Shown here: positions 22,204 to 36,698 of the stretch, one piece after another | Layout: every line of letters begins with the position of its first letter | Numbering within the stretch: position 1 is the first letter of the stretch | Source: Methyloceanibacter sp. | Lineage (GTDB): Bacteria > Pseudomonadota > Alphaproteobacteria > Rhizobiales > Methyloligellaceae | Length of the DNA: 64,000 nucleotides | NCBI RefSeq assembly: GCF_050728395.1 | Contig: NZ_JBOHJB010000001.1 | Coordinates: 56,601-120,600 of the forward strand | Direction: 5' to 3' | Position numbers and translations under genes: made by a program | The notes under the pieces: generated by a model | The model's database searches: none | What the model was told of the DNA's origin: nothing | Seen by the model: only the letters and a program-made list of their open reading frames with translations

Positions 22204-25119
22204 TCAAGTTGGGGCTGCGCCAGCCCTGTTCAAGTGAACTCCCCGGCGAATGACGAACGGGAGGAGCAAGAGCAATAGCGCACCCAGCGAAATCAGGGCT
22301 CCAGCTCGGAAGGAGACCGGCTCGTAGGCGAACTCGACAGTACTTTTCCCCGCCGGCACGATGACGCCTCTGAACAGATAGTCCGCTTTCAGCAGCGGAG
22401 CCGGTTTTCCGTCAACGTAGGCCAGCCAGCCGGGGTAGTTGCTGTCGTTCAACATCAGCACGGCGGGCGACGGGGTATCCACCTCGACCGCCACATGCTG
22501 GGACTCATAGCGGGAAATCTTGGCGGTTCCGCCTGCCGCATCGGGCTTGATTGACTGAAGTATCGTCAAGTCACGGTCGGAAAGACCCTCGCGGGAAAGA
22601 GCGACAGCGTGAAAGGGATCGAAGCTCGGTTGCTTCAGGCGTTGCAGGACGTCACCGTCGGGCAGGATCTCGGCATTGTGAAAGAGCGAGGCCCGCGGCA
22701 AGACCTTGGAGACTTCGTAAATGCGAACCTCCTTGTCGTAGACCTCGCGAAAGGGCCCGCTCTTCTCAACCCCGCTCGCAGGCGCGAAGCGAAGCCCTGC
22801 CCATCCAGCCCAGTCCCAACCATTGCTGCCGCTCGGTCCTGGGTCGGTGGAGAACAGCAACTTGACGGGCTTCCCCGCGAAGCGACTGAGGTCCAAGCTA
22901 AATGGATGCCCCGCGCGAGCGGCACTGACCTCCTTTGGATTCAGGAAGGTCGAGAATAAAGGTTCGATCCTATCATCGCTCTCAACCTCGATGAGGAATC
23001 CGACGCCGTCACTCTTGTCGATGGCATCTTCCCGTATGACCGCAGTTCCCTCCAGCACCGGGCGGTCCGCCCGGATCGTCGTCGTATAGGAGAGTCGCTT
23101 GGAGGGGGGGTGATGAAACAAGCCTTGGACTGCCCGCCCATTCACGTCAAACGTGCCCGGTCCCAATCCCCATAGGTGTTCGCTTCTATGCTGCGCGAAA
23201 ATCTCGCCGGCAACGTTGGCGGTCGAGCCATACTCGCTCACGCTGATCAAATACTTCACCGAAGACAGTGCAAGAAATCGTCTCTCCGTTTCAGTGTCGA
23301 AGGCATAGGAGAATTTTGGATCGGCCCCCGTGAAGCGATTGGCCAAGTCACCCTGGAGGCGTGCGTCCCCAGGCGTGCCGAGAAAGCTGCGAATGAAATC
23401 CATGTAGCGGCGGTAGTACATGGCATCGAGACCCCGTACGTCAGCGAGCTCGAAGGCTCCAGCCCAGTTGGGAAAGAGCACGTTCTGGCGAGCGAAGATC
23501 CGGTAATGGTCTCGGTTTTGGGCGCGGAGGAAATCGATATAGGGAGCGCCGGCGTAAGGGGTTTCGCTCGCACGCGGAAGAGAGTTGAAAGCATAGAAGC
23601 TGGGGACGATGAAGTTGAAGGACAGCTCGGCGACGAGCAGCGACACCACACCCAAGGCCGCGTATGGAAAGCGCTTGCTTGGCAGCGACAGCAAAATGAT
23701 CGCGCCGAGAGACACGATGACCCCGGATAGGGCTGACACGTAGTACCAGGGCGCAACGTCCTTAACCGCGCGAAGCTCGGGCATATGCAGCGCCGCCAAG
23801 GCCAACACGATCCCAAGCACGATGCCGGCGGCAGCCAGCAGATGACGATATGCGTGCCGTTCGGTGACGTGAGAAAATCCGATGGCGGCGAGCATGGCGA
23901 CGCAAAATGCCATGAGCGGTTCCTGGTACTTTACGTAGATGACCAAATTTGAAATCGGCAGCGCTCCGATCCAATTGATGATCGGATGGCCGAAGTGCTT
24001 CAGGATCAACAGCACCAAGGACAGTGAGAAGAAAAAGGTCAGGGACGGCAGCGGAGCTGGAGATTTTGTCCGCCGGGGAAACAGCCAGACGATCATCGCG
24101 GTTGCCGCAAAGATGCTGGCGAGAAGTCCCCAATAGCCCCGAACGCCCAGTCGTCCCGAGAACACCGGTCCAGCGATCAGCGGAAGGAAGTAGGTAATCG
24201 CTGCCCCTAGGTCGGGGTAAGCCAGCAGTCCGGCAATCCTGCCGCCCACATTTGATGGACGGTGGGCGTCATGGCCCGCGGCCATGAACTCGAGGAATGG
24301 AAGCAGCAGAAATGCCGAAAGCGCAAAACCCAAGCTTATGGCAGCGGCGAACTTCCATAGCCGGGAAGTCAGGGTCGTACGGAACTCCGGTACCGAGGCG
24401 AGCCTGAACAAGACGAAGAGGCAGGCGAACGATACCGCCAAGAAAAGCGATTCAGGCATTCCGCCCAGGGTGGCGACGAGAATCATCCCGGCGGCGCCCG
24501 CGACCGCTCCCCAAGAATTCTTTCTCAGGAGGACTTCAAACACCAAAAAGAGACCTGGGAGCAGGACCTCCACGCTCAGATGAGGCATGGAAAGAAAGAG
24601 GGCCAAATATCCCGTTAGCATGAAGGCGATGGCCGCGAACAGCGCGGGAAGAAACTCGAGGAAAAGCCGCGCGAACAGGAACGTCAACAAACCCGCAAGG
24701 AGGAGGCGGCCAATGAGGAAAAGGTTGTACGCCCACGGCGTGGGATTGAGCGAGAGCAACACAGACAAGGGATAGAATGGCTGTGGCTGCATCGCCGCGG
24801 CGAGTGGCGCCCCGTAGGCGGTGTAGGGATTCCACAGCGGAAGCTCGTGCTCCGTCCAATACTGTTGTGAGAGGAGTTTGCTGTAAGGTTCTGCCAGCCA
24901 TGCAGGCGCGCCGGCATCCGGGGTCCGGCCAAAGGGCCGAGGTGTCGCCCTATCGGCTGGATTCCGGGCGTAGGCGCCCGAAGGCATGATGCTCGGTGCA
25001 TCCCGGACGCTCAGCAACAGCGTCTGGTCCATCCACAACACGGGGAAAAAGAGCAGATTGAGGATGACTGCCAAAGACAGAGTTGCGTAGACCCACTCTT
25101 TCATGCGGACCTCGCGCAT
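22204..25119 (-). CDS. YfhO-family GT-C membrane glycosyltransferase with inserted beta-sandwich domain
   Basis: LPLWNPYTAYGAPL, FYPL, LLLPFLEF, DVRGLDAM, and C-terminal YPGWLAYVDGKPAPLLKADYLFRGVIVPAGKSTVEFAYEP. Confidence 0.88.
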   Translation of the reverse strand: MREVRMKEWVYATLSLAVILNLLFFPVLWMDQTLLLSVRDAPSIMPSGAYARNPADRATPRPFGRTPDAGAPAWLAEPYSKLLSQQYWTEHELPLWNPYTAYGAPLAAAMQPQPFYPLSVLLSLNPTPWAYNLFLIGRLLLAGLLTFLFARLFLEFLPALFAAIAFMLTGYLALFLSMPHLSVEVLLPGLFLVFEVLLRKNSWGAVAGAAGMILVATLGGMPESLFLAVSFACLFVLFRLASVPEFRTTLTSRLWKFAAAISLGFALSAFLLLPFLEFMAAGHDAHRPSNVGGRIAGLLAYPDLGAAITYFLPLIAGPVFSGRLGVRGYWGLLASIFAATAMIVWLFPRRTKSPAPLPSLTFFFSLSLVLLILKHFGHPIINWIGALPISNLVIYVKYQEPLMAFCVAMLAAIGFSHVTERHAYRHLLAAAGIVLGIVLALAALHMPELRAVKDVAPWYYVSALSGVIVSLGAIILLSLPSKRFPYAALGVVSLLVAELSFNFIVPSFYAFNSLPRASETPYAGAPYIDFLRAQNRDHYRIFARQNVLFPNWAGAFELADVRGLDAMYYRRYMDFIRSFLGTPGDARLQGDLANRFTGADPKFSYAFDTETERRFLALSSVKYLISVSEYGSTANVAGEIFAQHRSEHLWGLGPGTFDVNGRAVQGLFHHPPSKRLSYTTTIRADRPVLEGTAVIREDAIDKSDGVGFLIEVESDDRIEPLFSTFLNPKEVSAARAGHPFSLDLSRFAGKPVKLLFSTDPGPSGSNGWDWAGWAGLRFAPASGVEKSGPFREVYDKEVRIYEVSKVLPRASLFHNAEILPDGDVLQRLKQPSFDPFHAVALSREGLSDRDLTILQSIKPDAAGGTAKISRYESQHVAVEVDTPSPAVLMLNDSNYPGWLAYVDGKPAPLLKADYLFRGVIVPAGKSTVEFAYEPVSFRAGALISLGALLLLLLPFVIRRGVHLNRAGAAPT

Positions 25120-26297: not shown

Positions 26298-27875
26298 ATG
26301 AGCAAACCACTTCGCCTTGTCAGGCAGCCCGCGCGGTCCGCTGAGTTTGCTTGTCCTCTGTGCGGAAGTGAGCACGCGGCCTATATTTTCTCGACAAACC
26401 AGCATCGAATCCACCGCTGCGCGGGCTGTGCGCTAACCTTCAGCGAAACGCGCCCCGAGAGGCCGGGGTCCGCGCCCTCTGCGGATTCCGCATCGATTGC
26501 GAAAGCCGAACGAGACGAAACCCATCATGCTCGCCTGCTCGCGGCGCTTGCCTCTGCGAAAGTCGAGGGACCGGTATTGGCGCTTGCCGAACCCAATGAC
26601 GGGCTCGTGTCGTTGCTTGGGCGCACCGGAATTCGTCTCGGTGACGTCGCCGGTCCGGAAAACTTCGCATCCGCCGATTGGGGAAGTGCGCACCAGGCCG
26701 CCGTCGTGTCCGATGCCCTGATGCGTGTCGCAAACCCTCGGGCGGCACTTTCGAAGATCCGGAAGCATCTTGCGCCCGGCGCATGCCTGTTCCTTAGCAT
26801 GCCCCTGGTTGACGGCTACCAAGCAAGGCTGATGGGCCGCAATTGGCACGAATGGCGGTCGCCGAACCTTTGGTACTTCAGCCGCGAAACTTTGAATCTA
26901 CTTCTGCTGGCCACGGGCTTCGAGCACGTCTGGTTTGAACCAGAGCGGCGCAGATACTCCCTCGATACGTTGCTTCAGCGCGTGGGCGCGCCTGCGGAGG
27001 CTGGGGGCTTGGGTCGCGGACTTGATCTGTTGCGGCGGGTCTCTCCTGGAAACCTTTGCCGCCGAGCCGTTCCCCCGCCGAGTGGAACGGACGTCGTCAC
27101 GGCCAGAACGGCGGCAATGGCGCCAAGCGACACCGTATCGATCATTGTTCCTGCTTTCAACGAAGGGGCCACGTTTAGAGCCTTGATGGATGCCTTGCTC
27201 GCGAAGCAACTCGCCGGCATGCGCAAAGAGATCATCATCGTCGAAAGCAACTCTACCGACGTCACCAGGGATCTCGCCAAGAGCTACGCCACGCATCCCG
27301 AAGTCAAACTGCTGCTGCAATCCGCCCCGCGCGGAAAGGGCAATGCCGTGCGCGAGGGCTTGACGGTCGCCACCGGCGACATCGTGATGATTCAGGATGC
27401 CGATCTCGAATACGATCTCGACGATTACGACGGACTTCTCGCGCCGCTAACAGCCTGGCAATCGATGTTCATCCTCGGCTCGCGCCACCAGGGCGGCTGG
27501 AAGATGAGAACGTTTCACGATGCGCCGCGACTGGCAGTGATGTTCAATTTCGCGCATTGGTTCTTTAGGTCGATGATCAATGGCGTGCTCAATACGCGGA
27601 TGACGGATCCTTTCACCATGTTCAAGGTCTTCCGCCGCGACGCTCTCTATGGACTGGACTTCACCTGCAACCGGTTCGATTTCGACATCGAGCTCGTGAT
27701 CAAGCTCGTGCGCAAGGGTTATGTGCCGGTGGAGATTCCGGTGAACTATGAGGCGCGGTCGTTCAGCGAGGGCAAGAAGGTCAGCGTCACTCGAGATGGC
27801 CTCACTTGGGTATGGACCATCCTCAAGGCCCGATTTGCTCCGATTCCGAGCAGGCTTTCGGAGCCCAATCGATAG
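26298..27875 (+). CDS. Fusion of zinc-ribbon/degenerate methyltransferase-like domain and DPM1-like GT2
   Basis: CPLC...CAGCAL, no GxG SAM motif, PNLWYFSRETL; then SIIVPAFNE, GKGNAVREG, IQDADLEYD, TDPFTMFKVFR, FDFDIEL. Confidence 0.82.
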   Translation: MSKPLRLVRQPARSAEFACPLCGSEHAAYIFSTNQHRIHRCAGCALTFSETRPERPGSAPSADSASIAKAERDETHHARLLAALASAKVEGPVLALAEPNDGLVSLLGRTGIRLGDVAGPENFASADWGSAHQAAVVSDALMRVANPRAALSKIRKHLAPGACLFLSMPLVDGYQARLMGRNWHEWRSPNLWYFSRETLNLLLLATGFEHVWFEPERRRYSLDTLLQRVGAPAEAGGLGRGLDLLRRVSPGNLCRRAVPPPSGTDVVTARTAAMAPSDTVSIIVPAFNEGATFRALMDALLAKQLAGMRKEIIIVESNSTDVTRDLAKSYATHPEVKLLLQSAPRGKGNAVREGLTVATGDIVMIQDADLEYDLDDYDGLLAPLTAWQSMFILGSRHQGGWKMRTFHDAPRLAVMFNFAHWFFRSMINGVLNTRMTDPFTMFKVFRRDALYGLDFTCNRFDFDIELVIKLVRKGYVPVEIPVNYEARSFSEGKKVSVTRDGLTWVWTILKARFAPIPSRLSEPNR

Positions 27876-27946
27876 ATGCTCCGCTGGGCCTCCAAGGATG
27901 CGCGTCCTTGCCGTTTTTTGAATCTGGCCCGTTTGCCGACCAGCCG

Positions 27947-28921
27947 ATGCCAAAGTCGATTCCTTCCAATTGGATTGCCCTTGCCAGCCGCCTGCTCCTT
28001 CTCGCTGCGATCCTGGTCATCGTTTCGCGCGAGCATAGTTTCGATACGCTGCTCGCCTTGTGGCAGCGTATCGAACCGGCCTCCCTCGCCCTCGTCACCG
28101 TCGTCATGATAGCTCTTCAGGCAACCGGCGCTTGGCGGCTCATGGCCATCACGTTTGCCGACGGGCTTCGTCAGGTCGGCTTCCGGCCGCTGTTTCGTAT
28201 CCAGCTCGTCTCGCAATTCGCAGCTGACGCCGCGCCGATCTCCGCGCTCGCTGACGTAGCGAAGGCCGCCATGGTCAAGCTTCGGTTCGCCCTCGGCACA
28301 GGGCAATCGATCCGCCCCGTCTTGTACGAGCGGATTTGTGGAGCCATGGCGGCGATCGTCATCGGAGTGCTATGCCTGTCCGCCCAATTGGTCGTGCCCA
28401 CCCCTGCGGATTTGGTGAAGGCCCAGGCGATTCTGTGGGGCGTGGGCTGCGCCGGCATCGCTGCTCTCATTGCCCTCGGCGGATTTCACCTCAACACCAA
28501 ATTCGAGTTCCTGAATCGGCTGGTGCGCGCGGTAATCGCGCTCGGTCACATGCTGCGTAGCCCTCTCCTCACCGCCCAGCTCCTATTGGCCACGGCGCTT
28601 CTTCTCGCAGGCTACTCGGTTATCTTCATCGTCCTTGCGCACGCCATGCAGATCCAAGTCTCCGTGCCCCACGTGTTTCTGTTCACCCCGCTGATTTTCT
28701 TCGTGTCGTCCCTTCCCGTATTCTATCAAGGCTGGGGCGGGCGCGAAGCCGCGGCGATCGCGACCATCGGCAACACGGGGCAAGTGACGAGCGCGGAAGC
28801 AATCGCCCTATCCGTCGCGTTCGGAATCGTGGTGTTTCTCGGCTCGCTTCCAGGAGCGGTATTCTGGCTGATGCGGCCATCCATGCGAAAAGCGGTCCGC
28901 CAGGAGGTCGAGCAGGCTTGA
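27947..28921 (+). CDS. Lysylphosphatidylglycerol synthase TM / UPF0104 flippase-like membrane protein
   Basis: WRL, ERICG and SSLPVFYQGWGGREAA motifs, about 8 TM helices. Start trimmed from 27806. Confidence 0.8.
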   Translation: MPKSIPSNWIALASRLLLLAAILVIVSREHSFDTLLALWQRIEPASLALVTVVMIALQATGAWRLMAITFADGLRQVGFRPLFRIQLVSQFAADAAPISALADVAKAAMVKLRFALGTGQSIRPVLYERICGAMAAIVIGVLCLSAQLVVPTPADLVKAQAILWGVGCAGIAALIALGGFHLNTKFEFLNRLVRAVIALGHMLRSPLLTAQLLLATALLLAGYSVIFIVLAHAMQIQVSVPHVFLFTPLIFFVSSLPVFYQGWGGREAAAIATIGNTGQVTSAEAIALSVAFGIVVFLGSLPGAVFWLMRPSMRKAVRQEVEQA

Positions 28922-28951: not shown

Positions 28952-29908
28952 ATGCATGCCTTCGTCACCGGCGCTGCCGGCTTCATCGGCAGCAATCTCG
29001 TCGATCGCTTGCTCGAGCAGGGCCATCCGGTCGTCGGCTACGACAATTTTTCCACCGGCTTCAGGCCCTTTCTGCAAAGCGCATCGACGCACGCGAATTT
29101 TCGACTGTGCGAGGGCGACGTCTTGGACCTGGAGGGGATGACACGCGTCATGCGGGGGACCGACATCGTGTTTCACCTGGCGGCCAACGCCGACGTTCGC
29201 TTCGGTCTTCAGCACCCACGTAAGGATCTCGAGCAGAATACCATCGCGACGTTCAATGTGCTCGAAGCGATGCGCGCCAATGCGGTCGGCCGGATCGTGT
29301 TCTCATCGACCGGCTCGATCTACGGCGAAGCCGATATCGTTCCTACCCCGGAGAACGCGCCCTTCCCCGTACAGACGTCTCTCTACGGAGCCTCCAAGCT
29401 CGCCGGCGAGGGGCTGATCGAAGCCTATTGTGAGGGGTTTGGCATGCGCGGCTGGATCTTCCGCTTCGTCTCCATCCTTGGGCCGCGCTACACCCACGGT
29501 CACGTGTTCGACTTCTACGCGCAGCTTCTCGATCACCCGTCACGGCTGGACGTGCTTGGCAACGGGCGCCAGCGGAAGTCTTATTTGCACGTTCAGGACT
29601 GCATCGACGCCATGGGTTGCGCCTTGCGCATGGCTGAGAACAAGGTCAATGTCTTCAATCTTGGTACTGACGAATATTGTGAAGTGAACGACTCGATCGG
29701 GTGGATGACGGGTCATCTCGGCGTCAAACCCGCCCTCGCCTATAGCGGCGGCGATCGTGGCTGGGTTGGCGACAATCCCTTTATCTTCCTCGATGCGAGC
29801 CGCATACGGGCGCTCGGCTGGAAGCCGAAATACTCCATCCGCGAGAGCGTCATCGAGACCTTGGATTGGCTCAGCAAGAACCAATGGGTTCTGGTCAGCC
29901 GGCGATAA
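28952..29908 (+). CDS. NAD-dependent epimerase/dehydratase (NDP-sugar epimerase)
   Basis: TGAAGFIGS, HLAANADV, SSTGSIYG, YGASK, KSYLHVQD. Confidence 0.9.
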   Translation: MHAFVTGAAGFIGSNLVDRLLEQGHPVVGYDNFSTGFRPFLQSASTHANFRLCEGDVLDLEGMTRVMRGTDIVFHLAANADVRFGLQHPRKDLEQNTIATFNVLEAMRANAVGRIVFSSTGSIYGEADIVPTPENAPFPVQTSLYGASKLAGEGLIEAYCEGFGMRGWIFRFVSILGPRYTHGHVFDFYAQLLDHPSRLDVLGNGRQRKSYLHVQDCIDAMGCALRMAENKVNVFNLGTDEYCEVNDSIGWMTGHLGVKPALAYSGGDRGWVGDNPFIFLDASRIRALGWKPKYSIRESVIETLDWLSKNQWVLVSRR

Positions 29909-29986: not shown

Positions 29987-31276
29987 ATGAAGATTTGCGT
30001 CTTTGGAACATGGCATCTGGGCTGCGTCACCGCTGCCTGCCTCGCCCATGCCGGCTACCTAACGACCGGCCTCGACTACGACCGGGCGGTTATTGCGGGT
30101 CTCCGGGCGGGCAAGGCTCCCTTGTTCGAGCCAGGACTGGACGAGCTGATCGCCGAAGGGATTGCCGCGTTCCGGCTGGACTTCGCGACAGACCCCAAGG
30201 CTGTGGCGGAGTGCGACATCGTCTGGGTGGCCTTCGATACTCCAGTCGACGACAATGACGTCGCCGACGTGCAATGCGTGATCGATGCCGCACGCGGCCT
30301 GTTGCCTCATCTCCGCGACGGCGCGGTCGTGCTGATCTCATCGCAGCTCCCTGTTGGCAGCACGCGCGCGTTGTCGGAGGATTTTCGCCGGGAAGAGCCC
30401 TCCAAGACATGCCACTTTGCCTATTCGCCGGAGAATTTGCGTCTTGGGAAGGCCATCGAGATCTTCAGGAACGCCGAACGTATCGTCGTGGGATGCGAGG
30501 ATGAGAGGGTCATCCAGGTCCTTCGCCCCGTGCTTGAGAATTTCACGCAAACCATCCTCTGGATGTGCCTCGAATCGGCGGAAATGGTGAAGCACGCCAT
30601 GAATGTTTTTCTCGCGACGAGCGTGACCTTCGCCAACGAGATGGCTTCGATTTGCGAGCGCGTGGGGGCGGACGCCGGCCAAGTGGAGCAAGCGCTTCGG
30701 CTTGAGCCTCGGATTGGTCCCAGAGCCTATATCAAACCAGGCACATCCTTTGCCGGCGGGACGTTGGCGCGCGATGTGATGTTCTTGCGGAGTATCGCGC
30801 GGCGCGAGGGCCTACACGTGCCGCTGATCGACGGCATTTTGCCGAGCAACAAGGCCCATCAGCGTTGGCCGGTTCGGCGTTTGACGGAGCGCTACGGGTC
30901 GTTGAAGGGTCGCAACGTGGCGGTGCTTGGACTCACCTACAAACCCGGGACGGACACGCTCCGCCGCTCATCCTCGATTGAGGTGTGCCGGGGGCTTGCC
31001 GAACTTGGCGCCAAGGTCACCGCCTTCGATCCGGCGATCCGCACCCTACCTCAGGAGCTCGAAAAGGTTATCCGTCTCACCGATAGCATCGAAGGGGCTC
31101 TGTCCGGCGCCGATGCCGCCATCGTGGCGACCGAGTGGCCCGAGTTCAAGTCGCTGTCGCCGAGCGTCTGCATCGATACCATGCGCAGCCCGTTGATCTG
31201 CGATCCTAATCGCTTCCTCGGGGCGGCTTTCGAGAACGCTCCGCAAATCACGTACATCACCGTGGGGAAAGCTTAA
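29987..31276 (+). CDS. UDP-glucose/GDP-mannose dehydrogenase family protein with non-canonical active site
   Basis: FEPGLDEL, FDTPVD, YSPENLRLGKA, SAEMVKHAMN and LGLTYKPGTDTLR. The catalytic GGxCxxKD motif reads GGTLARD. Confidence 0.85.
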   Translation: MKICVFGTWHLGCVTAACLAHAGYLTTGLDYDRAVIAGLRAGKAPLFEPGLDELIAEGIAAFRLDFATDPKAVAECDIVWVAFDTPVDDNDVADVQCVIDAARGLLPHLRDGAVVLISSQLPVGSTRALSEDFRREEPSKTCHFAYSPENLRLGKAIEIFRNAERIVVGCEDERVIQVLRPVLENFTQTILWMCLESAEMVKHAMNVFLATSVTFANEMASICERVGADAGQVEQALRLEPRIGPRAYIKPGTSFAGGTLARDVMFLRSIARREGLHVPLIDGILPSNKAHQRWPVRRLTERYGSLKGRNVAVLGLTYKPGTDTLRRSSSIEVCRGLAELGAKVTAFDPAIRTLPQELEKVIRLTDSIEGALSGADAAIVATEWPEFKSLSPSVCIDTMRSPLICDPNRFLGAAFENAPQITYITVGKA

Positions 31277-31277: not shown

Positions 31278-32144
31278 ATGCGGCTCACCGGCAAATGCGC
31301 CATCGTCACGGGTGCGAGCCAGGGACTCGGCGCGGCAATAGCCGAACGCTTCGTGGAGGAAGGCGCCTCCTTGCTGATCTGCGCCCGCAGCGCCGACGCC
31401 ATCAACAGCGTTGCGGAGAAACTCTCTGCCAAGGCGAGCAGCGGTCAACAGATTGCCGCTTGCACCACGGACGTGGCCGATGCATCGCAGGTCGATAGCC
31501 TGGTGAAGCGCGCGCTGGACCTCTTCGGACGCATCGATATCCTCGTGAACAATGCAGGCATTTACGGTCCAATGGGCCTGACTCACGAGGTCGATTGGAA
31601 CGAATGGGTCGATGCCATCTCCATAAACCTGTTGGGGGTCGTCTATGCCTGCCGCGCCGTCACCCCGATCATGATCGCCCAAGACTCGGGCAGGATCGTC
31701 AACATCTCGGGCGGCGGAGCGACGAACCCCCTGCCCCGGCTGACCAGCTACGCAGCATCAAAGGCTGCCGTCGTGCGCTTCAGCGAGTCGCTTGCGCTCG
31801 AGCTCAAGGAGCACGGCATTACCGTGAACACGGTCGCTCCGGGCGCGCTGGCCACGCGAATGATGCGGCAAGTGCTCGAAGCCGGCCCCGAGAAGGTCGG
31901 TGCCGCGTTCCACGAGCGCATGGGCAAGCTCCACAGAGAAGGTGGGACGCCTCTCTCGGCCGGGGCCGATCTGACCGTCTATCTCGCCTCCGACGAGAGC
32001 GCCGGCATCACCGGAAGATTGATCAGCGCTGTGTGGGATCCTTGGCCGACCCTGCACATTCATGCCGCTGAACTCGAGTCCGCCGACATTTACACGCTTC
32101 GTCGTATCGTGCCCGCCGATCGCGGCCGCAGCTTCGATGACTAA
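31278..32144 (+). CDS. Short-chain dehydrogenase/reductase
   Basis: TGASQGLG, LVNNAG, YAASK. Confidence 0.9.
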   Translation: MRLTGKCAIVTGASQGLGAAIAERFVEEGASLLICARSADAINSVAEKLSAKASSGQQIAACTTDVADASQVDSLVKRALDLFGRIDILVNNAGIYGPMGLTHEVDWNEWVDAISINLLGVVYACRAVTPIMIAQDSGRIVNISGGGATNPLPRLTSYAASKAAVVRFSESLALELKEHGITVNTVAPGALATRMMRQVLEAGPEKVGAAFHERMGKLHREGGTPLSAGADLTVYLASDESAGITGRLISAVWDPWPTLHIHAAELESADIYTLRRIVPADRGRSFDD

Positions 32145-32147: not shown

Positions 32148-33119
32148 ATGAAACTCGGGATCGTCGGTTGTGGATTGATCGGACAGAAGCGCGCCGCGAC
32201 AGCAGCAAGCGGCCAGGTCGCCATCGTCTGCGACACCGACATCGAGCGGGCGAGATCGCTTGCGTCACGCACCGGCGCCGATGCGGTCGAGGACTGGCGC
32301 AAAGTGATCGCGGCAAACATCGATGCGGTCATCGTCGCCACGACGCACGACAGCCTCGCCGAGATTTCCACGGCGGCTGCGGAAGCCGGAAAGCACGTGC
32401 TCGTCGAAAAGCCTGCCGGGCGGAACTTCGCCGAGGCGGCGCGGGTCCGCGATGCGGGGCAGCGGAGCGGGATCGTGGTAAAGGTCGGCTTCAATCACCG
32501 TTTCCACCCAGGCCTGAGCGCAGCGAAGGACATCGTCAGTTCCGGCGCGCTGGGGCCGCTATACTATGTTCGCGGCCGTTACGGACATGGCGGGCGCGTG
32601 GGCTACGAGCAAGAATGGCGCTGTCAGCGCGAGATTTCCGGCGGCGGTGAACTGATCGACCAGGGAAGCCACCTGATCGATCTGTCGCGCTGGTTCTTGG
32701 GCGATCTCGCTCTCGACTATGCCGTAACGCCGACGTTCTTTTGGGATGTCGCCGTCGACGACAATTGCTTTCTTGCCCTGCGCGGCACCAAAAGCGAAGT
32801 CGCCTGGCTGCACGCCACCTGGACCGAGTGGAAGAACATGTTCTCGTTTGAGATCGTGGGACGCGACGGTAAACTCACCAGCGAAGGCCTCGGCGAGAGT
32901 TACGGCGTCGAGCGGCTCACCTTCCACAAGATGCTTCCTCAAATGGGACCGCCCGAGACCGTCACCTGGGAGTATCCGTTTCCGGATACGTCGTGGCAGT
33001 GCGAGTTTGAAAGCTTCACCGCCGCCGTCGAGGGCAGACCTTCGCGGATTGCCGACATCAGCGACGCATGTGCAGTTCTTGCGATTGTCGAACAAGCATA
33101 TGCAGGAGCCAGCAGATGA
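32148..33119 (+). CDS. Gfo/Idh/MocA family oxidoreductase
   Basis: GCGLIG, HVLVEKP, GGGELIDQGSHLID. Confidence 0.9.
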   Translation: MKLGIVGCGLIGQKRAATAASGQVAIVCDTDIERARSLASRTGADAVEDWRKVIAANIDAVIVATTHDSLAEISTAAAEAGKHVLVEKPAGRNFAEAARVRDAGQRSGIVVKVGFNHRFHPGLSAAKDIVSSGALGPLYYVRGRYGHGGRVGYEQEWRCQREISGGGELIDQGSHLIDLSRWFLGDLALDYAVTPTFFWDVAVDDNCFLALRGTKSEVAWLHATWTEWKNMFSFEIVGRDGKLTSEGLGESYGVERLTFHKMLPQMGPPETVTWEYPFPDTSWQCEFESFTAAVEGRPSRIADISDACAVLAIVEQAYAGASR

Positions 33120-34096
33120 TCATCGCCCGTAGCCCCTTGCGCATCACGCTTGGCGGCGGAGGGACCGACCTTCCGTCCTACTACCGGGATCATGGAGGAT
33201 TCCTGATCGCGGCAGCCATCGACCGCTACGTCTACATCACCATCCATATGACGTTCGTCGACTATCTCATCGTCAAATATTCCAAGCTCGAGCAGGTCAC
33301 CTCCATCGACGAGCTGCAGCACCCGATCATCCGCGAAGCCATGAAGTTGCTTGGCGTCAGTTGCAAGCGGCTCGAGATCACGAGCATGGCGGACATTCCC
33401 GCAGGCACGGGGCTCGGCTCCTCCGGCAGCTTCACCACGGCGTTGCTGCGGGCGCTCCATGCCTATCAGAAGAACCTCGTCAGCCCCCAAACGCTGGCCG
33501 AGCAGGCTTGCCATATCGAAATCGACCTTCTCGGCGAGCCGACCGGCAAGCAGGACCAATTTATCGCTTCATTCGGCGGTGTGACCTGCTTCCATTTCAA
33601 CAAAGACGACACCGTCTCCGCCGCACCTGCACAGATTTCGCCCGAAACGCTGGACAATCTCGAAGACGGATTGGTGATGTTCTTTACCGGCGTTACCCGT
33701 TCTGCCGGAACCATCCTCAAGGAGCAGGACGACAAATCGAAAGCCAAGGACAGCTCGGTGATCGATAATCTGCACTATGTGAAGGATCTCGGCTTGCGCA
33801 GCCTCAACGCGCTTGAAAGCGGCGACCTCTACATGTTCGGCGTGCTTATGGATGAGCACTGGAAGCACAAGAAGAAGCGCTCCAACCACATGACAAATCC
33901 GGAGATTGACCACTGGTACGACCTCGCCATGCGCAATGGCGCGCGGGGCGGCAAGCTGATCGGCGCCGGTGGCGGAGGATTCCTGTTGTTCTACACCGAG
34001 GACAAGAAGCGTGTGCGGCATGTCATGCGCGAGACGGGGCTCGAGGAGGTGCGCATCCGTTTCGATTTCGAAGGCACCAAGATCATCGTGCAATGA
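33116..34096 (+). CDS. hddA: GHMP sugar kinase (HddA/LmbP-like heptose/octose-phosphate 1-kinase)
   Basis: ARSPLRITLGGGGTD, GTGLGSSG, GKQDQ, GKLIGAGGGGF. ATGA coupling at 33116. Confidence 0.85.
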   Translation: MIIARSPLRITLGGGGTDLPSYYRDHGGFLIAAAIDRYVYITIHMTFVDYLIVKYSKLEQVTSIDELQHPIIREAMKLLGVSCKRLEITSMADIPAGTGLGSSGSFTTALLRALHAYQKNLVSPQTLAEQACHIEIDLLGEPTGKQDQFIASFGGVTCFHFNKDDTVSAAPAQISPETLDNLEDGLVMFFTGVTRSAGTILKEQDDKSKAKDSSVIDNLHYVKDLGLRSLNALESGDLYMFGVLMDEHWKHKKKRSNHMTNPEIDHWYDLAMRNGARGGKLIGAGGGGFLLFYTEDKKRVRHVMRETGLEEVRIRFDFEGTKIIVQ

Positions 34097-34815
34097 CCGA
34101 GATGCCGCCATTGGCGCTGCTGGCGGGCGGCTTGGCCACGCGACTGCGGCCACTGACACAGCAGATGCCGAAGGCGATGATCGAGGTCGCCGGCGAGCCG
34201 TTCATCGCTCATCAGCTCCGCCTTTTGCAGCGCGAGCGCGTTTCGCGCGTGGTGCTTTGCGTCGGGTATCTTTGGGAGCAGATCGCGGAGTTCGTCGGCG
34301 ACGGCGGCAGGTTCGGCGTCAACGTCAGTTACCAGGTCGACGGTCCGGAGTTGCTCGGCACCGGTGGAGCGCTCCGCGCCGCGCTTCCCGAGCTCGGAAG
34401 CGAGTTCCTCGTGATGTACGGCGACAGCTGGCTCGACACGGCCTATGCGCCGATCGTCGATGCATTCCGGGCGAGCGGCAAGCCTGCATTGATGACCGTG
34501 TTCCGCAACGATGGGAAATGGGACACGAGCAATGTCTGGTTCGATGAAGGGCGCATCAGGTGCTACGACAAGGCGGAGCGCCTGCCGCAGATGCGCCATA
34601 TCGACTGGGGGCTCGGAATACTCCGCTCCGAGGTGCCGTCAGCGCGGTCCCCGGGCGTTTCGTTCGATCTCGCCAGCGTCTATGCCGAGCTTGCGCAATC
34701 CGGCAACCTCGCGGGCTATGAGGTGAAGACCCGCTTCTACGAGATCGGGTCGCCGGACGGCTTGCGCAAAACCGACGCGCTGCTCCGCGGCAGGGTCGCG
34801 CCGACGTCCCTTTGA
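34093..34815 (+). CDS. hddC: Sugar-1-phosphate nucleotidyltransferase (HddC/LmbO-like)
   Basis: LAGGLATRLRPLT..MPK.MI.VAGEPF, LGTGGAL, MYGDS, FYEIGSP. Confidence 0.78.
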   Translation: MTEMPPLALLAGGLATRLRPLTQQMPKAMIEVAGEPFIAHQLRLLQRERVSRVVLCVGYLWEQIAEFVGDGGRFGVNVSYQVDGPELLGTGGALRAALPELGSEFLVMYGDSWLDTAYAPIVDAFRASGKPALMTVFRNDGKWDTSNVWFDEGRIRCYDKAERLPQMRHIDWGLGILRSEVPSARSPGVSFDLASVYAELAQSGNLAGYEVKTRFYEIGSPDGLRKTDALLRGRVAPTSL

Positions 34816-34825: not shown

Positions 34826-35575
34826 CTACGAGGCGGCGCGTTTGCCCGGACTCTCGATCTGATAGCCCGCCGATGCCGCGTCGTTGTAGAACATCTTCAC
34901 CGTGTCCAGCGAGTAATCCTTGAGATCCTTGCCGACCAGAGCGAGCTTCTTCAAATGGTCGTTGGTGACGGTGATGATGTGGCAGCCGATTGCATCTGCC
35001 TGGAAGATGTTCAGCACCTCCCGAGGGCTCGCCCAGAGCAGCTCGGCCTTCGGACGTCCCTTCAACAGGCGAAGCGCCTCGGCCATATGCGGCACCGGAT
35101 CGCGTCCGGTATCGGCGATGCGGCCGGCAAAGACCGACACCACCGCCGGCACGCTCTCCGCCAACGCCTCGCCGACACGCGAGACCTGCTCCAGCGTCGT
35201 CATGGCGGTGACATTGAGTTTCACCCCTGCCCGCGACAGCATTGCGATCAATGGGCCGGAGAAATCGCCCTTGGTATTGGTCACCGGGATCTTCACATAG
35301 ACATTGTCACCCCATGAAGAGATCTCACGCGCCTGCGCCTCCATCGAAAGGAAGTCGTCGGCGAACACTTCGAAGGAGATTGGGCGATCGGGGATGATGG
35401 TCAGCACATCATGGGCAAAAGACTTGTAGTCGTTCACACCGGCCGCGCGCATCAGCGTGGGGTTGGTGGTGAAACCCTTGATGAGTGGGTTGCCGGCTGC
35501 CTGGCGCATGGCGTTGAGGTCGGCGCCATCGGCGAAAATCTTGATTCTGAGTTGGTCGACGCTCGGTGTGCTCAT
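34826..35575 (-). CDS. tal: Transaldolase (short Tal/FSA family)
   Basis: IFADGA, GFTTNPTL, ISFEV, VYVKIP (Schiff-base Lys), SVFAGRIAD, LWASPRE. Confidence 0.88.
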   Translation of the reverse strand: MSTPSVDQLRIKIFADGADLNAMRQAAGNPLIKGFTTNPTLMRAAGVNDYKSFAHDVLTIIPDRPISFEVFADDFLSMEAQAREISSWGDNVYVKIPVTNTKGDFSGPLIAMLSRAGVKLNVTAMTTLEQVSRVGEALAESVPAVVSVFAGRIADTGRDPVPHMAEALRLLKGRPKAELLWASPREVLNIFQADAIGCHIITVTNDHLKKLALVGKDLKDYSLDTVKMFYNDAASAGYQIESPGKRAAS

Positions 35576-36120
35576 GTGCGATCTCCCGTTTGCGTCCCCT
35601 CAAGTATAGCCGCGGCAGCTTCGATCAGCGAACTGATTATTTTATCGGGCTGCATTGACCCTTCTTGCTCGTAACCGTGATCCACGAATAGCGTCTTGCA
35701 CCCGGCGGCACGCCCAGCTTCCATGTCGCGCCAGCGATCGCCGACGAGATAGCTCGACGAGAGATCGATCCCCCACTCCGCTGCGGCGTCGAGCAGCATG
35801 CCTGGCTTGGGCTTGCGGCAATGGCAATTGTCGGTGTTGAGGTGAGCGCACATCTTGATGCCGTCGATCTGGAGCTCCGCCCGGATCTTGTCGTGCATGG
35901 CATCGACGGTCGCCTGTGAGGTCCGACCGGTCGCAAGGTCCGGCTGATTGGTGATGACGATGATCGTGAAGCCGGCCTTCTTGAGGGCGCCGATGGCTTC
36001 CCCTACTCCCGGCAGGAACCGGAAATCTTCGAGCCGGGTGGGAGCCACGGCCTTTCCATCGCGCTCCACGTTGGCATTGATGACGCCGTCCCGGTCGAGG
36101 AAGACGGCCCTAGTCACCAT
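35572..36120 (-). CDS. gmhB: HAD-family sugar bisphosphate phosphatase (GmhB/LmbK-like)
   Basis: AVFLDRDGVIN, ITNQPD, CHCRKPKPGM, VGDRWRDMEAG. True start ATG 36120 lies inside the longer ORF. Confidence 0.88.
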   Translation of the reverse strand: MVTRAVFLDRDGVINANVERDGKAVAPTRLEDFRFLPGVGEAIGALKKAGFTIIVITNQPDLATGRTSQATVDAMHDKIRAELQIDGIKMCAHLNTDNCHCRKPKPGMLLDAAAEWGIDLSSSYLVGDRWRDMEAGRAAGCKTLFVDHGYEQEGSMQPDKIISSLIEAAAAILEGTQTGDRT

Positions 36121-36698
36121 TTGGTCGCGTGCTTCTGCAGCTTCGGATTCGATACGAGGCAGTGCCAAACGACGGCCTGGAAGGCCTCGGATAAAGGCGT
36201 CACCCTCGACTCCTCGACGGTCGGAATCACCACGACAACGTCGCCAGCCTTCTTGGTATAGCCGCCGTCGCGGCCGACGATGCCGAACACTTTCAGGCCG
36301 CGCTGCTTGGCCTCCTGGATCGCTGCCACGATATTCGGGCTCACGTTCTTTTCGAGATTGCCGCCGCCGACGGAGAAGATCAGGATCGCATCCTTGGCAT
36401 TGGCGCGGCTCACTTTGAGCCACTCGGCGAACACCGTTTGCCAGCCTTCGTCGTTGGTGCGTGCCGTGAGCTCCGAGACATTGTCGGTCGGAGCGTAGGC
36501 CTCGATGCCGCACAGCTTGCGAAAGTCATTGACGGCATGGCTGCTGTTGCCGGCACTGCCGCCCACGCCGAGAATGAACAGACGTCCGTCGCGCTCGCGC
36601 AGGGCGACGAGCTCGTCGCAAAGGGACTCGACCGTCTCCGGGGACAGAAGCGTCGCGGTTTGGCAGACTTCACCAAGGAAGGTGGCAGCGTGGGTCAT
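36114..36698 (-). CDS. gmhA: SIS-domain phosphosugar isomerase (GmhA-like, atypical)
   Basis: LFILGVGGSAGNSSHAVND, LTARTNDEGW..VF, SEAFQAVVWH. Start trimmed to ATG 36698. Confidence 0.8.
   Translation of the reverse strand: MTHAATFLGEVCQTATLLSPETVESLCDELVALRERDGRLFILGVGGSAGNSSHAVNDFRKLCGIEAYAPTDNVSELTARTNDEGWQTVFAEWLKVSRANAKDAILIFSVGGGNLEKNVSPNIVAAIQEAKQRGLKVFGIVGRDGGYTKKAGDVVVVIPTVEESRVTPLSEAFQAVVWHCLVSNPKLQKHATKW

What the first reader, a model, noticed from the sequence alone, without database searches (positions are those of the whole stretch)
29987..31276. UDP-glucose-dehydrogenase homolog missing the catalytic cysteine and with an altered Rossmann motif
Seen: the family motif FGGSCFPKD reads FAGGTLARD, with Thr (codon 30761-30763) at the nucleophilic Cys position. 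The N-terminal GxGxxG reads GTWHLG. The ORF is otherwise intact and sits in the same operon as the SDR and Gfo/Idh/MocA genes. Established: the Cys is required for the four-electron oxidation to a uronic acid. Inference: this protein does different chemistry, for example as half of an LmbL/LmbZ-type dehydratase.
Basis: partly seen in the sequence, partly recalled or inferred. Interest (0 to 1): 0.68.

Follow-up and report, generated by a model that had tools for sequence, protein, structure and literature searches.

The report
Cysteine-less UGDH-like enzyme in octose cassette
This intact gene belongs to a very large, unstudied branch of the UDP-glucose dehydrogenase family that carries threonine in place of the catalytic cysteine and has a rebuilt cofactor pocket; it sits in a widely shared gene cassette that most likely builds an unusual eight-carbon sugar for the cell surface, not a sugar acid.

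Summary
ORF 29987-31276 is a full three-domain UDP-glucose/GDP-mannose-dehydrogenase homologue. FAGGTLARD aligns with GGSCFPKD of solved UGDHs, so Thr259 (ACG, 30761-30763) replaces the Cys. GTWHLG replaces GxGYVG.

This is not decay. 120 of 120 close homologues, and 148 of the 150 best 50%-identity cluster representatives, share the signature GxWHLG / DTP / SSQ / PENLRLG / KHxxN / GGTLxRD. The UGDH residues Glu149, Lys202, Asn206 and Asp263 stay at 99-100%. The genome also has a canonical UGDH elsewhere.

The gene lies in a conserved block: GalE-like epimerase, this protein, classical SDR, Gfo/Idh/MocA. Beside it are a GHMP kinase, a nucleotidyltransferase, a transaldolase, a GmhB-like phosphatase and a SIS isomerase. 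That is the lincomycin GDP-octose gene set, with a ketoreductase where LmbS would be. The block recurs in 15 or more phyla.

The tightest partner is the SDR, through adjacency and fusions in both orders, not the Gfo protein.

Best reading: an LmbL-like, non-uronate-forming enzyme that processes the C6-C8 side chain of an NDP-octose. Whether it still uses NAD is open. LmbL itself could not be fetched for alignment.

The scan has found this same family several times before on other DNA.

The parts
29987..31276 (+). Thr-type Cys-less UDP-glucose-dehydrogenase-like protein (429 aa), the finding
   Evidence: Intact ORF. Three UDPG_MGDP_dh domains. TIGR03026 at 321 bits. AF2 model pLDDT 93.2, TM 0.9 to Swiss-Prot UGDH models.
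30005..30022 (+). GTWHLG (aa 7-12) in place of the GxGYVG dinucleotide-binding loop; W9 = TGG 30011-30013, H10 = CAT 30014-30016
   Evidence: In 148 family representatives: G7 99%, W9 86%, H10 99%, G12 99%.
30749..30775 (+). FAGGTLARD (aa 255-263) in place of the GGSCFPKD active-site motif; Thr259 = ACG 30761-30763
   Evidence: Family frequencies: T259 97%, L260 99%, R262 100%, D263 99%.
28952..29908 (+). GalE-like extended-SDR epimerase (the position LmbM holds in the lmb pathway)
   Evidence: PF01370 3e-50. Best solved relative is 3ehe GalE-1, 1.8e-82, with GxxGxxG and S..YxxxK intact. Found next to the homologue in 88 of 120 loci.
31278..32144 (+). Classical SDR ketoreductase, translationally coupled (1-nt spacer) to the UGDH-like gene
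   Evidence: adh_short 1e-60. TGxxxGxG, NNAG and YxxxK intact. Adjacent in 94 of 120 loci. Fused to Thr-type UGDH-like domains in P0128, P0138, P0160, P0234 and P0248, and in a 67-member Atlas cluster.
32148..33119 (+). Gfo/Idh/MocA NAD(P) oxidoreductase (the position LmbZ/CcbZ holds)
   Evidence: PF01408, PF22725 and PF02894. GCGLIG, EKP and D..H motifs present; nearest solved relatives are 6a3f and DgpA 7xr9. The NCBIfam top hit is levoglucosan dehydrogenase, below its cut-off. Present in 80 of 120 loci.
33116..34096 (+). GHMP sugar-phosphate kinase, HddA-like (LmbP position). Start probably 33116 (ATGA overlap), not 33068
   Evidence: Homologues are 325-326 aa.
34093..34815 (+). Sugar-1-phosphate nucleotidyltransferase, HddC/MurU-like (LmbO position)
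34826..35575 (-). Transaldolase of the TIGR02134 type (LmbR position)
   Evidence: 358 bits against a cut-off of 282. This type is rare: 3 of 41 relatives and 0 of 14 control genomes. It lies beside Thr-type genes elsewhere.
35572..36123 (-). GmhB-like HAD-IIIA sugar-bisphosphate phosphatase (LmbK position). The listed 313-aa ORF is over-extended
36114..36761 (-). SIS-domain sugar-phosphate isomerase (the position of LmbN's isomerase domain)
   Evidence: PF13580.
26298..28921 (+). GT2 (with an N-terminal methyltransferase-like domain) and an LPG_synthase_TM/UPF0104 membrane protein: the likely lipid-carrier loading and flipping step for the finished sugar
   Evidence: The same two genes precede the cassette in L001-L005.
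22204..25119 (-). YfhO-family GT-C, probable extracytoplasmic transferase (context)
   Evidence: PF09586.

Best explanation
The gene encodes a member of a large, ancient, Cys-less ('Thr-type') clade of the UDP-glucose/GDP-mannose-dehydrogenase superfamily. It is not a uronic-acid-forming dehydrogenase.

It is the UGDH-fold component of a conserved tailoring block: GalE-like epimerase, this protein, a classical SDR, and Gfo/Idh/MocA. That block acts on an NDP-octose made by the flanking transaldolase, SIS isomerase, GHMP kinase, HAD phosphatase and nucleotidyltransferase genes. In the lincomycin pathway the same role is assigned to LmbL working with LmbZ.

Proposed mechanism (inferred, not shown):
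1. The protein binds the nucleotide sugar as UGDH does, with the exocyclic chain in the old active site.
2. A 6-keto group, installed by the Gfo/Idh/MocA partner, is polarised by the retained Lys202/Asn206 oxyanion pocket.
3. Retained Glu149 and Asp263, plus the clade-specific His10, Asp84, Gln120, His203 and Thr259, catalyse enolisation at C7 and loss of the C8 hydroxyl. The clade-specific residues line what used to be the nicotinamide/pyrophosphate cleft.
4. The coupled SDR then reduces the keto product with NAD(P)H, where lincomycin uses the aminotransferase LmbS.
5. This gives an 8-deoxy-octose type sugar, which the GT2 / UPF0104 / YfhO genes upstream hand on to a surface glycan.

Layered confidence: not a uronate-forming UGDH, about 0.95. 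Part of an NDP-higher-sugar (probably octose) tailoring block in an LmbL-like role, about 0.7. NAD-independent eliminase rather than an NAD-dependent C6 dehydrogenase, about 0.45.
For: SHOWN
- Thr replaces the Cys nucleophile, and Trp replaces the second Gly of GxGxxG.
- The substitutions are fixed. 120/120 close homologues carry them, as do 148/150 of the best 50%-identity representatives, down to 36% identity.
- Frequencies in those 148: W9 86%, H10 99%, D84 97% (canonical G of GTP), Q120 99% (canonical T of KST), N150 97% and L153 95% (canonical PEFLREG), H203 97%, T259 97%, R262 100%.
- The UGDH acid/base and oxyanion residues persist: E149 99%, K202 100%, N206 100%, D263 99%. So do the C-terminal nucleotide-sugar motif residues Y318, K319, R326 and S328.
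- No alternative conserved Cys exists.
- The DSSP of the AF2 model (pLDDT 93.2) places W9/H10 after strand 2-6, D84 after strand 78-81 and Q120 after strand 114-117. In a Rossmann sheet (order 3-2-1-4-5-6) these are neighbouring loops that form the dinucleotide cleft. The spatial proximity is an inference from that topology.
- The own genome has a canonical UGDH (GAGYVG, PEFLREG, GGSCFPKD) on another contig.
- Context: tight operon with an LmbM-, LmbZ-, LmbP-, LmbO-, LmbR-, LmbK- and LmbN-like gene set.
- The same block is found in Skermanella and in metagenomic contigs.
- In 120 loci from 15 or more phyla, within 8 kb or less: SDR 94, epimerase 88, Gfo 80, GHMP 59, nucleotidyltransferase 45, transaldolase 35, SIS 31, HAD 30.
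- In 10 diverse carriers whose 8-kb locus lacked the transaldolase, 7 have a TIGR02134-type one about 1-6 kb outside that window. That type is above cut-off in 0 of 14 control genomes and 3 of 41 relatives.
- The SDR is fused to the Thr-type domain at either end (a 67-member cluster).
- The Gfo partner has intact NAD and catalytic motifs.

FROM THE LITERATURE
- LmbM, LmbL, CcbZ and CcbS convert GDP-octose to GDP-lincosamide (PMC12945683, citing Wang et al. 2020).
- LmbL is listed as the 'C8 dehydrogenase' and LmbZ as the 'C8 oxidoreductase' (PMC4351081).

FROM MY OWN KNOWLEDGE
- The Gfo partner's nearest solved relatives, 6a3f and DgpA 7xr9, are sugar 3-dehydrogenases of oxidise-then-eliminate pathways.
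Against: - LmbL/CcbL were never aligned, so the link to the only characterised analogue rests on gene context.
- Some NAD-site features persist: G7, G12, an acidic residue at the end of strand 2 (D30 86% plus E 5%) and T85-P86. About 5% of members have Gly at position 9, which restores GxGxxG. NAD(H) binding is therefore not excluded.
- No fusion to Gfo/Idh/MocA was seen.
- Some loci have the four tailoring genes without kinase, nucleotidyltransferase or transaldolase nearby (L006). 3 of the 10 sampled genomes lack a TIGR02134-type transaldolase, though these are incomplete MAGs. The substrate need not always be an octose.
- No model coordinates were available, so the claimed clustering of His10, Asp84 and Gln120 is topological inference only.
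Confidence: 0.55

Rival explanations
1. NAD(P)-dependent two-electron dehydrogenase. The protein still binds a dinucleotide and oxidises the secondary C6 hydroxyl of a heptose or octose nucleotide to a ketone. A ketone cannot be oxidised further, so the Cys became dispensable. Elimination and reduction are then done by the Gfo and SDR partners.
For: - Family ancestry.
- Retained G7, G12, D/E30 and T85-P86.
- Retained Lys202, Asn206 and Asp263, which also serve alcohol oxidation in UGDH.
- About 5% of members have a canonical GxGHLG.
- PMC4351081 lists LmbL as a predicted 'C8 dehydrogenase'.
Against: - Trp (86%) sits at the Gly that contacts the pyrophosphate in Rossmann folds.
- There are coordinated replacements in the three other cleft loops: GTP to DTP, KST to SSQ, REG to RLG.
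- The cassette already encodes three intact NAD(P) enzymes.
Confidence: 0.3
2. The substrate is not an octose. The block tailors a GDP-heptose (GmhA/HddA/GmhB/HddC-type supply) or a common NDP-hexose, and the transaldolase only boosts precursor supply.
For: - The kinase, phosphatase and nucleotidyltransferase score best against heptose-pathway models, all below their cut-offs.
- L006 and L001-L003 lack an adjacent transaldolase, SIS or HAD gene.
Against: - A TIGR02134-type transaldolase is otherwise rare, yet it lies in or beside the cassette in 35 of 120 loci and in 7 of 10 further genomes.
- The complete LmbR/N/P/K/O-equivalent set is present here.
- A C6 ketone activates loss of a C8, not a C7, hydroxyl (chemical reasoning).
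Confidence: 0.15
3. Catalytically inert pseudo-enzyme that only scaffolds or regulates the SDR and/or Gfo enzyme.
For: - Loss of the nucleophile and an altered cofactor loop.
- Frequent fusion to the SDR.
Against: Near-absolute conservation of active-site-type polar residues, both old (E149, K202, N206, D263) and new (H10, D84, Q120, H203, T259, R262), across sequences only 36-54% identical to the query. This is not what is expected of a dead site.
Confidence: 0.07
4. Ordinary UDP-glucose 6-dehydrogenase that makes a uronic acid, using Thr259 or another residue as nucleophile.
For: - Automatic annotations call it UDP-glucose 6-dehydrogenase.
- Overall fold and 32% identity to UGDHs.
Against: - No conserved substitute Cys.
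- Scores are far below the equivalog cut-offs: TuaD 290 against 700, AglM 250 against 670.
- A canonical UGDH is present elsewhere in the genome.
- The cassette has no uronate-using enzymes.
Confidence: 0.02

Closest known systems
LmbL / CcbL with LmbZ / CcbZ (plus LmbM and LmbS / CcbS) of lincomycin and celesticetin biosynthesis, Streptomyces lincolnensis and S. caelestis
   Same: A UGDH-family protein encoded together with a Gfo/Idh/MocA oxidoreductase, a GalE-like epimerase, and the transaldolase / isomerase / kinase / phosphatase / nucleotidyltransferase set that builds GDP-octose. These enzymes are reported to convert GDP-octose to GDP-lincosamide (PMC12945683; PMC4351081). From my own memory of Wang et al. 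2020, which I could not read here, the steps include a 6,8-dehydration by LmbL plus CcbZ.
   Different: - Sequence relationship not tested; LmbL could not be fetched.
- No LmbS-type aminotransferase. A classical SDR is instead coupled, and elsewhere fused, to the UGDH-like gene.
- The cassette sits in a surface-glycan locus with GT2, UPF0104 and YfhO genes, not in an antibiotic cluster.
- It occurs in 15 or more phyla.
Canonical bacterial UDP-glucose 6-dehydrogenase (e.g. PDB 4a7p, 3gg2, 3vtf; B. subtilis TuaD/YwqF)
   Same: Same three-domain fold (TM about 0.9; 32% identity in the fold alignment; E 8e-68 to 4a7p). Same Glu, Lys, Asn and Asp active-site residues and the same nucleotide-sugar-binding motifs.
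   Different: - Cys to Thr.
- GxGYVG to GxWHLG.
- GTP to DTP.
- KST to SSQ.
- PEFLREG to PENLRLG.
- KY to KH.
- PKD to ARD.
All of these are fixed in the clade. The clade is a separate split from canonical sequences in a quick tree (100% SH-aLRT).
Asn-type Cys-less UGDH-like proteins (GGNLERD), seen here in a same-order genome (L157)
   Same: Also lacks the Cys. Shares H10, D84, Q120, E149, K202, N206, L260, R262 and D263. Lies about 5 kb from a TIGR02134-type transaldolase.
   Different: Only 32% identical. Has Asn at 259, GMTHLG, VETLIFG and KISIN. Only one example was examined here.
Oxidise-then-eliminate sugar pathways led by Gfo/Idh/MocA 3-dehydrogenases (levoglucosan dehydrogenase 6a3f; C-glycoside DgpA 7xr9), and single-enzyme NDP-hexose 4,6-dehydratases (RmlB/Gmd)
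   Same: The logic is the same: a transient or separate keto group activates a beta-elimination, followed by reduction. The cassette's Gfo protein is most similar to these dehydrogenases.
   Different: Here the eliminating partner would have a UGDH fold, which is not known for a lyase. In RmlB-type enzymes all steps occur in one SDR active site.

Membership tests
UDP-glucose/GDP-mannose dehydrogenase superfamily (Pfam PF03721 + PF00984 + PF03720; TIGR03026) | Three-domain architecture and fold | tested here: met
   All three Pfam domains score above their cut-offs. TIGR03026 scores 321 bits against a cut-off of 190. The AF2 model has TM about 0.9 to UGDH models.
UDP-glucose 6-dehydrogenase as a functional class (EC 1.1.1.22 and other four-electron NDP-sugar 6-dehydrogenases) | Catalytic Cys nucleophile in GGxCxxKD | tested here: not met
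   Thr259 aligns with the Cys of 4a7p, 3gg2 and 3vtf. Thr is at 97% in the clade, and no substitute Cys is conserved.
UDP-glucose 6-dehydrogenase as a functional class | N-terminal GxGxxG dinucleotide loop and the PEFLREG / KST / GTP cleft motifs | tested here: not met
   The motifs read GTWHLG, PENLRLG, SSQ and DTP. Actual NAD binding could not be measured.
UDP-glucose 6-dehydrogenase as a functional class | Glu, Lys, Asn and Asp catalytic set and nucleotide-sugar binding residues | tested here: met
   E149, K202, N206 and D263 are at 99-100%. R242, Y318, K319, R326 and S328 are conserved.
UDP-glucose 6-dehydrogenase as a functional class | Score above the NCBIfam equivalog cut-offs | tested here: not met
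   TuaD 290 against 700; AglM 250 against 670; PRK15057 73 against 757.
LmbL/CcbL-type component of GDP-octose tailoring | Encoded with a Gfo/Idh/MocA (LmbZ-like) and a GalE-like (LmbM-like) enzyme | tested here: met
   The arrangement is conserved in 80 and 88 of 120 loci respectively.
LmbL/CcbL-type component of GDP-octose tailoring | Encoded with the octose-8-phosphate / NDP-octose supply set (equivalents of LmbR, LmbN, LmbP, LmbK and LmbO) | tested here: met
   Transaldolase, SIS isomerase, GHMP kinase, HAD phosphatase and nucleotidyltransferase are all within 5.5 kb. Family identity with the Lmb proteins themselves was not tested.
LmbL/CcbL-type component of GDP-octose tailoring | Sequence orthology to LmbL/CcbL, sharing the same active-site signature | not testable with these tools
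   LmbL was not retrievable. The genome-contig scan returned no Streptomyces lincolnensis locus. No LmbL appeared among the Swiss-Prot fold hits. The PNAS 2020 paper is not held.
LmbL/CcbL-type component of GDP-octose tailoring | Followed by a C6 aminotransferase (LmbS/CcbS) | tested here: not met
   No aminotransferase lies in 26298-36761. A classical SDR occupies the coupled position. SDR-less loci carry a second extended SDR instead.
LmbL/CcbL-type component of GDP-octose tailoring | Catalyses 6,8-dehydration together with the Gfo/Idh/MocA partner | not testable with these tools
   This needs an enzyme assay.
WbpA/WbpB-type pair (UDP-GlcNAc 6-dehydrogenase + Gfo/Idh/MocA 3-dehydrogenase) | A Cys-containing 6-dehydrogenase makes the uronate that the Gfo enzyme then oxidises | tested here: not met
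   The Cys is absent. No aminotransferase, acetyltransferase or 2-epimerase set is present in the cassette.

The most novel reading that the evidence does not exclude
A UGDH-fold protein has given up both NAD and the thiol and has become a cofactor-independent enolase/dehydratase. A new His10-Asp84-Gln120 cluster fills the former dinucleotide cleft. The enzyme works on the C6-C8 side chain of an NDP-octose, in a physical unit with a dedicated SDR. It is the signature enzyme of a multi-phylum pathway to 8-deoxy-octose-type surface sugars that I found no report of in bacterial glycans.
Probability: 0.3. Interest if true: 0.78.

Novelty: new variant of a known kind. Interest (0 to 1): 0.55.

Why it matters
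**Annotation.** Thousands of genes in at least 15 phyla, including one archaeal contig, are auto-annotated 'UDP-glucose 6-dehydrogenase'. They cannot perform that reaction, so glycan-pathway predictions that rest on the label are wrong.

**Biology.** The cassette suggests that eight-carbon sugars of the lincomycin type are not an oddity of two Streptomyces antibiotic clusters. They may be a widespread ingredient of bacterial surface glycans, with the antibiotic pathway a derived offshoot.

**Enzymology.** The clade offers a clean natural experiment. A four-electron dehydrogenase scaffold kept its substrate site and acid/base residues while the cofactor cleft was rebuilt. Its constant pairing or fusion with an SDR points to a split, multi-protein version of the deoxysugar 'oxidise, eliminate, reduce' logic.

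**Testability.** All proteins are soluble-type enzymes, and a cultured carrier (Skermanella stibiiresistens SB22) exists.

Tried and rejected
**1. Fetching LmbL/CcbL for direct alignment.**
- The PNAS 2020 paper is not held, and literature searches gave no motif information.
- The one record labelled 'Streptomyces griseus' is a 3.2-Mb MAG. Its GTDB genus holds only itself, and its family holds 182 genomes of about 2-5 Mb, so it gave no route to S. lincolnensis.
- Ten high-GC representatives carried no informative names.
- The Swiss-Prot fold search listed only UGDHs.

**2. Complex prediction of the UGDH-like protein with the SDR.** No answer (score 0.00). This is neither support nor evidence against.

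**3. Maximum-likelihood tree.** Only the quick tree finished. The canonical clade splits off with 100% SH-aLRT. Thr-type monophyly and the place of the long-branch Asn-type and TviB-like rows are unresolved.

**4. Sequencing runs.** None was listed for 28952-33119, and no RNA holder was listed.

**5. Relatives' matches.** I first considered that the roughly 350-bit matches in the relatives were Thr-type orthologues. The 19 fetched regions that gave a readable UGDH frame all carry GxGYVG and PEFLREG, and 18 showed GGSCFPKD to my motif search; one of the 20 regions gave no readable frame.

**6. G026.** I considered that its UGDH-family gene beside the transaldolase was Cys-less. It has GGHCIGVD, i.e. 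it is canonical TviB-like.

**7. Model coordinates.** None are exposed, so no pocket geometry or NAD-clash measurement could be made.
Full report
**1. The observation**

ORF 29987-31276(+) translates without interruption into 429 residues. It matches all three Pfam domains of the UDP-glucose/GDP-mannose dehydrogenase family and the NCBIfam subfamily model TIGR03026 (321 bits, cut-off 190). It falls far below every UGDH equivalog cut-off, for example TuaD at 290 against 700.

In phmmer alignments to solved UGDHs (4a7p, 3gg2, 3vtf; E 8e-68 to 5e-61), the query's GGTLARD lies exactly on GGSCFPKD and GTWHLG lies on GTGYVG. The DNA reads GGC GGG ACG TTG GCG CGC GAT, with ACG at 30761-30763. ACG differs from a Cys codon at all three positions. 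GGA ACA TGG CAT CTG GGC occupies 30005-30022.

**2. Not decay but a fixed redesign**

All 120 closest database homologues (54-85% identity) carry G-x-W-H-L-G and [FY]-x-G-G-T-L-A-R-D. An exhaustive HMMER search of 1.84 billion cluster representatives returned 150 best hits, down to 36% identity. 148 of them carry the same signature, and only two are canonical, with GGxCLPKD.

In those 148 unselected representatives the frequencies are:

| Group | Residues |
|---|---|
| Clade-specific | G7 99%, W9 86%, H10 99%, D84 97%, Q120 99%, N150 97%, L153 95%, H203 97%, T259 97%, L260 99%, R262 100% |
| Retained UGDH catalytic set | E149 99%, K202 100%, N206 100%, D263 99% |

No Cys column exceeds 82%. 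The best, C223, sits in the central-domain helix, and the solved UGDH sequences aligned carry the same Cys.

The canonical counterparts of the new residues are GxG-Y-VG, G-TP, KS-T, PE-F-LR-E-G, K-Y and C-F-P-K-D. In the AF2 model (pLDDT 93.2, pTM 0.86), W9/H10, D84 and Q120 follow strands 2-6, 78-81 and 114-117. In a Rossmann sheet these are neighbouring strands whose C-terminal loops form the dinucleotide cleft. This spatial inference could not be measured, because no coordinates are exposed.

The overall fold is that of UGDH (TM about 0.9, 25-32% identity).

**3. The genome has an ordinary UGDH as well**

A whole-genome search finds three family members. The one on contig 17 reads GAGYVG, PEFLREG and GGSCFPKD.

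Among 40 related genomes (24 of the same genus, 16 of the same order), none had a Thr-type match. I fetched 20 of their best matches. The 19 that gave a readable UGDH frame all carry GxGYVG and PEFLREG, and 18 showed GGSCFPKD to my motif search; one region gave no readable frame. In this lineage the cassette is therefore an accessory, variable-glycan trait. GC content gives no sign of recent transfer.

**4. Context**

The gene is the second of a tightly packed plus-strand run. A convergent minus-strand operon follows.

| Coordinates | Strand | Gene |
|---|---|---|
| 28952-29908 | + | GalE-like epimerase |
| 29987-31276 | + | this gene |
| 31278-32144 | + | classical SDR (1-nt spacer) |
| 32148-33119 | + | Gfo/Idh/MocA |
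| probably 33116-34096 | + | HddA-like GHMP kinase |
| 34093-34815 | + | nucleotidyltransferase |
| 34826-35575 | - | transaldolase, TIGR02134 (358 bits, cut-off 282) |
| 35572 to about 36123 | - | GmhB-like phosphatase |
| 36114-36761 | - | SIS isomerase |

Upstream lie a GT2, an LPG_synthase_TM/UPF0104 protein and a divergent YfhO-type GT-C.

Function for function, this is the lincomycin GDP-octose set: LmbR, N, P, K, O, then M, L, Z (PMC4351081, PMC12945683). The exception is that a ketoreductase stands where the aminotransferase LmbS would be.

The partner enzymes look active:
- Gfo has GCGLIG, EKP and D..H. It is nearest to 6a3f and to DgpA 7xr9 among solved structures, and levoglucosan dehydrogenase is its NCBIfam top hit, below cut-off. 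From my own knowledge, these relatives are sugar 3-dehydrogenases.
- The SDR has TGxxxGxG, NNAG and YxxxK.
- The epimerase is 1.8e-82 to GalE-1 3ehe.

**5. Conservation of the context**

The block GT2 - UPF0104 - epimerase - UGDH-like - SDR - Gfo - kinase - nucleotidyltransferase recurs in Skermanella stibiiresistens and in several metagenomic contigs. Two of those contigs also have the transaldolase - HAD - SIS operon. Two more distant members keep epimerase - UGDH-like - SDR, and in L006 Gfo as well.

The loci come from Actinomycetota (Solirubrobacterales), Myxococcota, Acidobacteriota, Planctomycetota, Chloroflexota, Verrucomicrobiota, Gemmatimonadota, Pseudomonadota, Elusimicrobiota, Lentisphaerota and others, plus one Micrarchaeota contig.

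tblastn with the window's proteins gave these counts inside those loci of 8 kb or less. They are lower bounds.

| Gene | Loci of 120 |
|---|---|
| SDR | 94 |
| Epimerase | 88 |
| Gfo/Idh/MocA | 80 |
| GHMP kinase | 59 |
| Nucleotidyltransferase | 45 |
| Transaldolase | 35 |
| SIS isomerase | 31 |
| HAD phosphatase | 30 |

Gene order varies, but UGDH-like followed directly by SDR is the most constant pair. Loci without the classical SDR run epimerase - UGDH-like - Gfo - second extended SDR, so a reductase is still present.

In ten diverse carriers whose window lacked the transaldolase, seven have a TIGR02134-type gene above cut-off, lying about 1-6 kb outside the window on the same contig. That transaldolase type is above cut-off in 0 of 14 control genomes and in 3 of 41 relatives of this genome. 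This linkage is the main argument that the substrate is a C8 sugar and not a heptose.

**6. Fusions**

Thr-type domains occur fused to the classical SDR at the N-terminus (P0128, P0138) and at the C-terminus (P0160, P0234, P0248). One is fused to the epimerase (P0021). The nearest structural cluster in the ESM Atlas is a 741-residue SDR-UGDH-like fusion with 67 members. No fusion to Gfo/Idh/MocA was seen.

**7. A second Cys-less type**

One same-order genome that owns a TIGR02134 transaldolase has, about 5 kb away, a UGDH-like gene with GMTHLG and GGNLERD (Asn at 259; 32% identity). It shares H10, D84, Q120, E149, K202, N206, L260, R262 and D263. The residues common to both types are the best candidates for the new chemistry.

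**8. Mechanism**

Shown:
- The nucleophile is absent.
- Four cofactor-cleft motifs are replaced.
- The substrate-side catalytic residues are kept.
- The gene is coupled to three intact NAD(P) enzymes and to an octose-type supply route.

Inferred:
1. The protein binds the NDP-sugar as UGDH does.
2. Lys202/Asn206 polarise a C6 carbonyl made by the Gfo enzyme.
3. Glu149 and Asp263, with His10, Asp84, Gln120, His203 and Thr259, catalyse enolisation at C7 and loss of the C8 hydroxyl.
4. The coupled SDR reduces the product.

This is the LmbL/LmbZ-type 6,8-dehydration ending in a ketoreduction instead of a transamination. That LmbL and CcbZ perform a 6,8-dehydration is my recollection of Wang et al. 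2020, which I could not read here.

The main rival is that the protein is still an NAD-dependent, two-electron C6 dehydrogenase, for which a Cys is unnecessary because a ketone cannot be oxidised further. In its favour are the retained G7, G12, D/E30 and T85-P86, and the roughly 5% of members with Gly at position 9. I put the eliminase reading at about 0.45, the dehydrogenase reading at about 0.3, and 'ordinary UGDH' at about 0.02.

**9. Comparison with the known, and novelty**

By homology this is a member of the UGDH superfamily. It fails the defining features of the functional class: the Cys, the dinucleotide loop and the equivalog scores. The only characterised analogue is LmbL, and membership of an LmbL clade could not be tested because the sequence could not be retrieved.

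I found no paper describing this cassette in surface glycans. I therefore class it as a new variant of a known kind.

The scan has already flagged and followed up the same Thr-type family, the Asn-type family and the SDR fusions on other genomes, with similar conclusions. This instance adds little that is unique. What it adds:
- a complete cassette attached to a GT2 / UPF0104 / YfhO delivery module;
- the residue statistics;
- the transaldolase linkage test.

**10. Things that gave nothing**

- Complex prediction of the UGDH-like protein with the SDR returned no answer.
- No sequencing run was listed.
- The tree was only a quick one.

Noticed in passing
L157:1477-2757 (-), genome G028, same order as the window's genome: A second kind of Cys-less UGDH-like gene. 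It has Asn at the Cys position (GGNLERD) and GMTHLG at the N-terminus. It lies about 5 kb from that genome's TIGR02134-type transaldolase and is 32% identical to the window's protein.
   Followed up: partly
window 33068-33119 and 35572-36513: Two mechanical ORF starts look over-extended. The GHMP kinase probably starts at 33116 (ATGA overlap with the Gfo stop, giving 326 aa like its homologues). The HAD phosphatase probably starts near 36123 (about 184 aa), overlapping the end of the SIS gene.
   Followed up: partly
P0128, P0138, P0160, P0234, P0248, P0021 (database proteins): Natural fusions of the Thr-type UGDH-like domain with a classical SDR, at either end, and one with the GalE-like epimerase. 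The ESM Atlas holds a 67-member cluster of the SDR fusion, mostly Verrucomicrobiota.
   Followed up: partly
L006:1-21205 (metagenomic contig): Here the core GT2 - epimerase - UGDH-like - SDR - Gfo block has no kinase, nucleotidyltransferase or transaldolase beside it. It is surrounded by two adenylation-PCP-thioesterase proteins, B12-radical SAM enzymes, a carbamoyltransferase and dioxygenase-like genes, which looks more like a natural-product cluster than a glycan locus.
   Followed up: no
L102 (contig labelled Candidatus Micrarchaeota): An archaeal-labelled contig carries a Thr-type gene matching the two-motif pattern. Neither the binning nor possible transfer was checked.
   Followed up: no
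L061 / G001: A record titled 'MAG: Streptomyces griseus' is a 3.2-Mb genome. Its GTDB genus holds only itself, and its family holds 182 genomes of about 2-5 Mb, so the label is almost certainly wrong. It carries both a canonical UGDH and a Thr-type variant that reads GDWHLA.
   Followed up: partly
G000 contig 40 (L131): A third UDPG_MGDP_dh-family gene in the window's own genome (central domain 92.7 bits). It is very divergent, with a long branch in the tree. Its active-site motifs were not read.
   Followed up: no
window 26298-27875 and 22204-25119: The cassette is preceded by a GT2 carrying an N-terminal methyltransferase-like domain and by a UPF0104/LPG_synthase_TM protein. A 971-aa YfhO-type GT-C lies divergently upstream. 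The same GT2 and UPF0104 pair precedes the cassette in Skermanella and other contigs, which suggests delivery through a lipid carrier to an extracytoplasmic glycan.
   Followed up: partly
G000 compared with 40 relatives: None of the 24 same-genus genomes searched has the Thr-type gene or a TIGR02134-type transaldolase. Within this lineage the whole cassette appears specific to this genome.
   Followed up: partly
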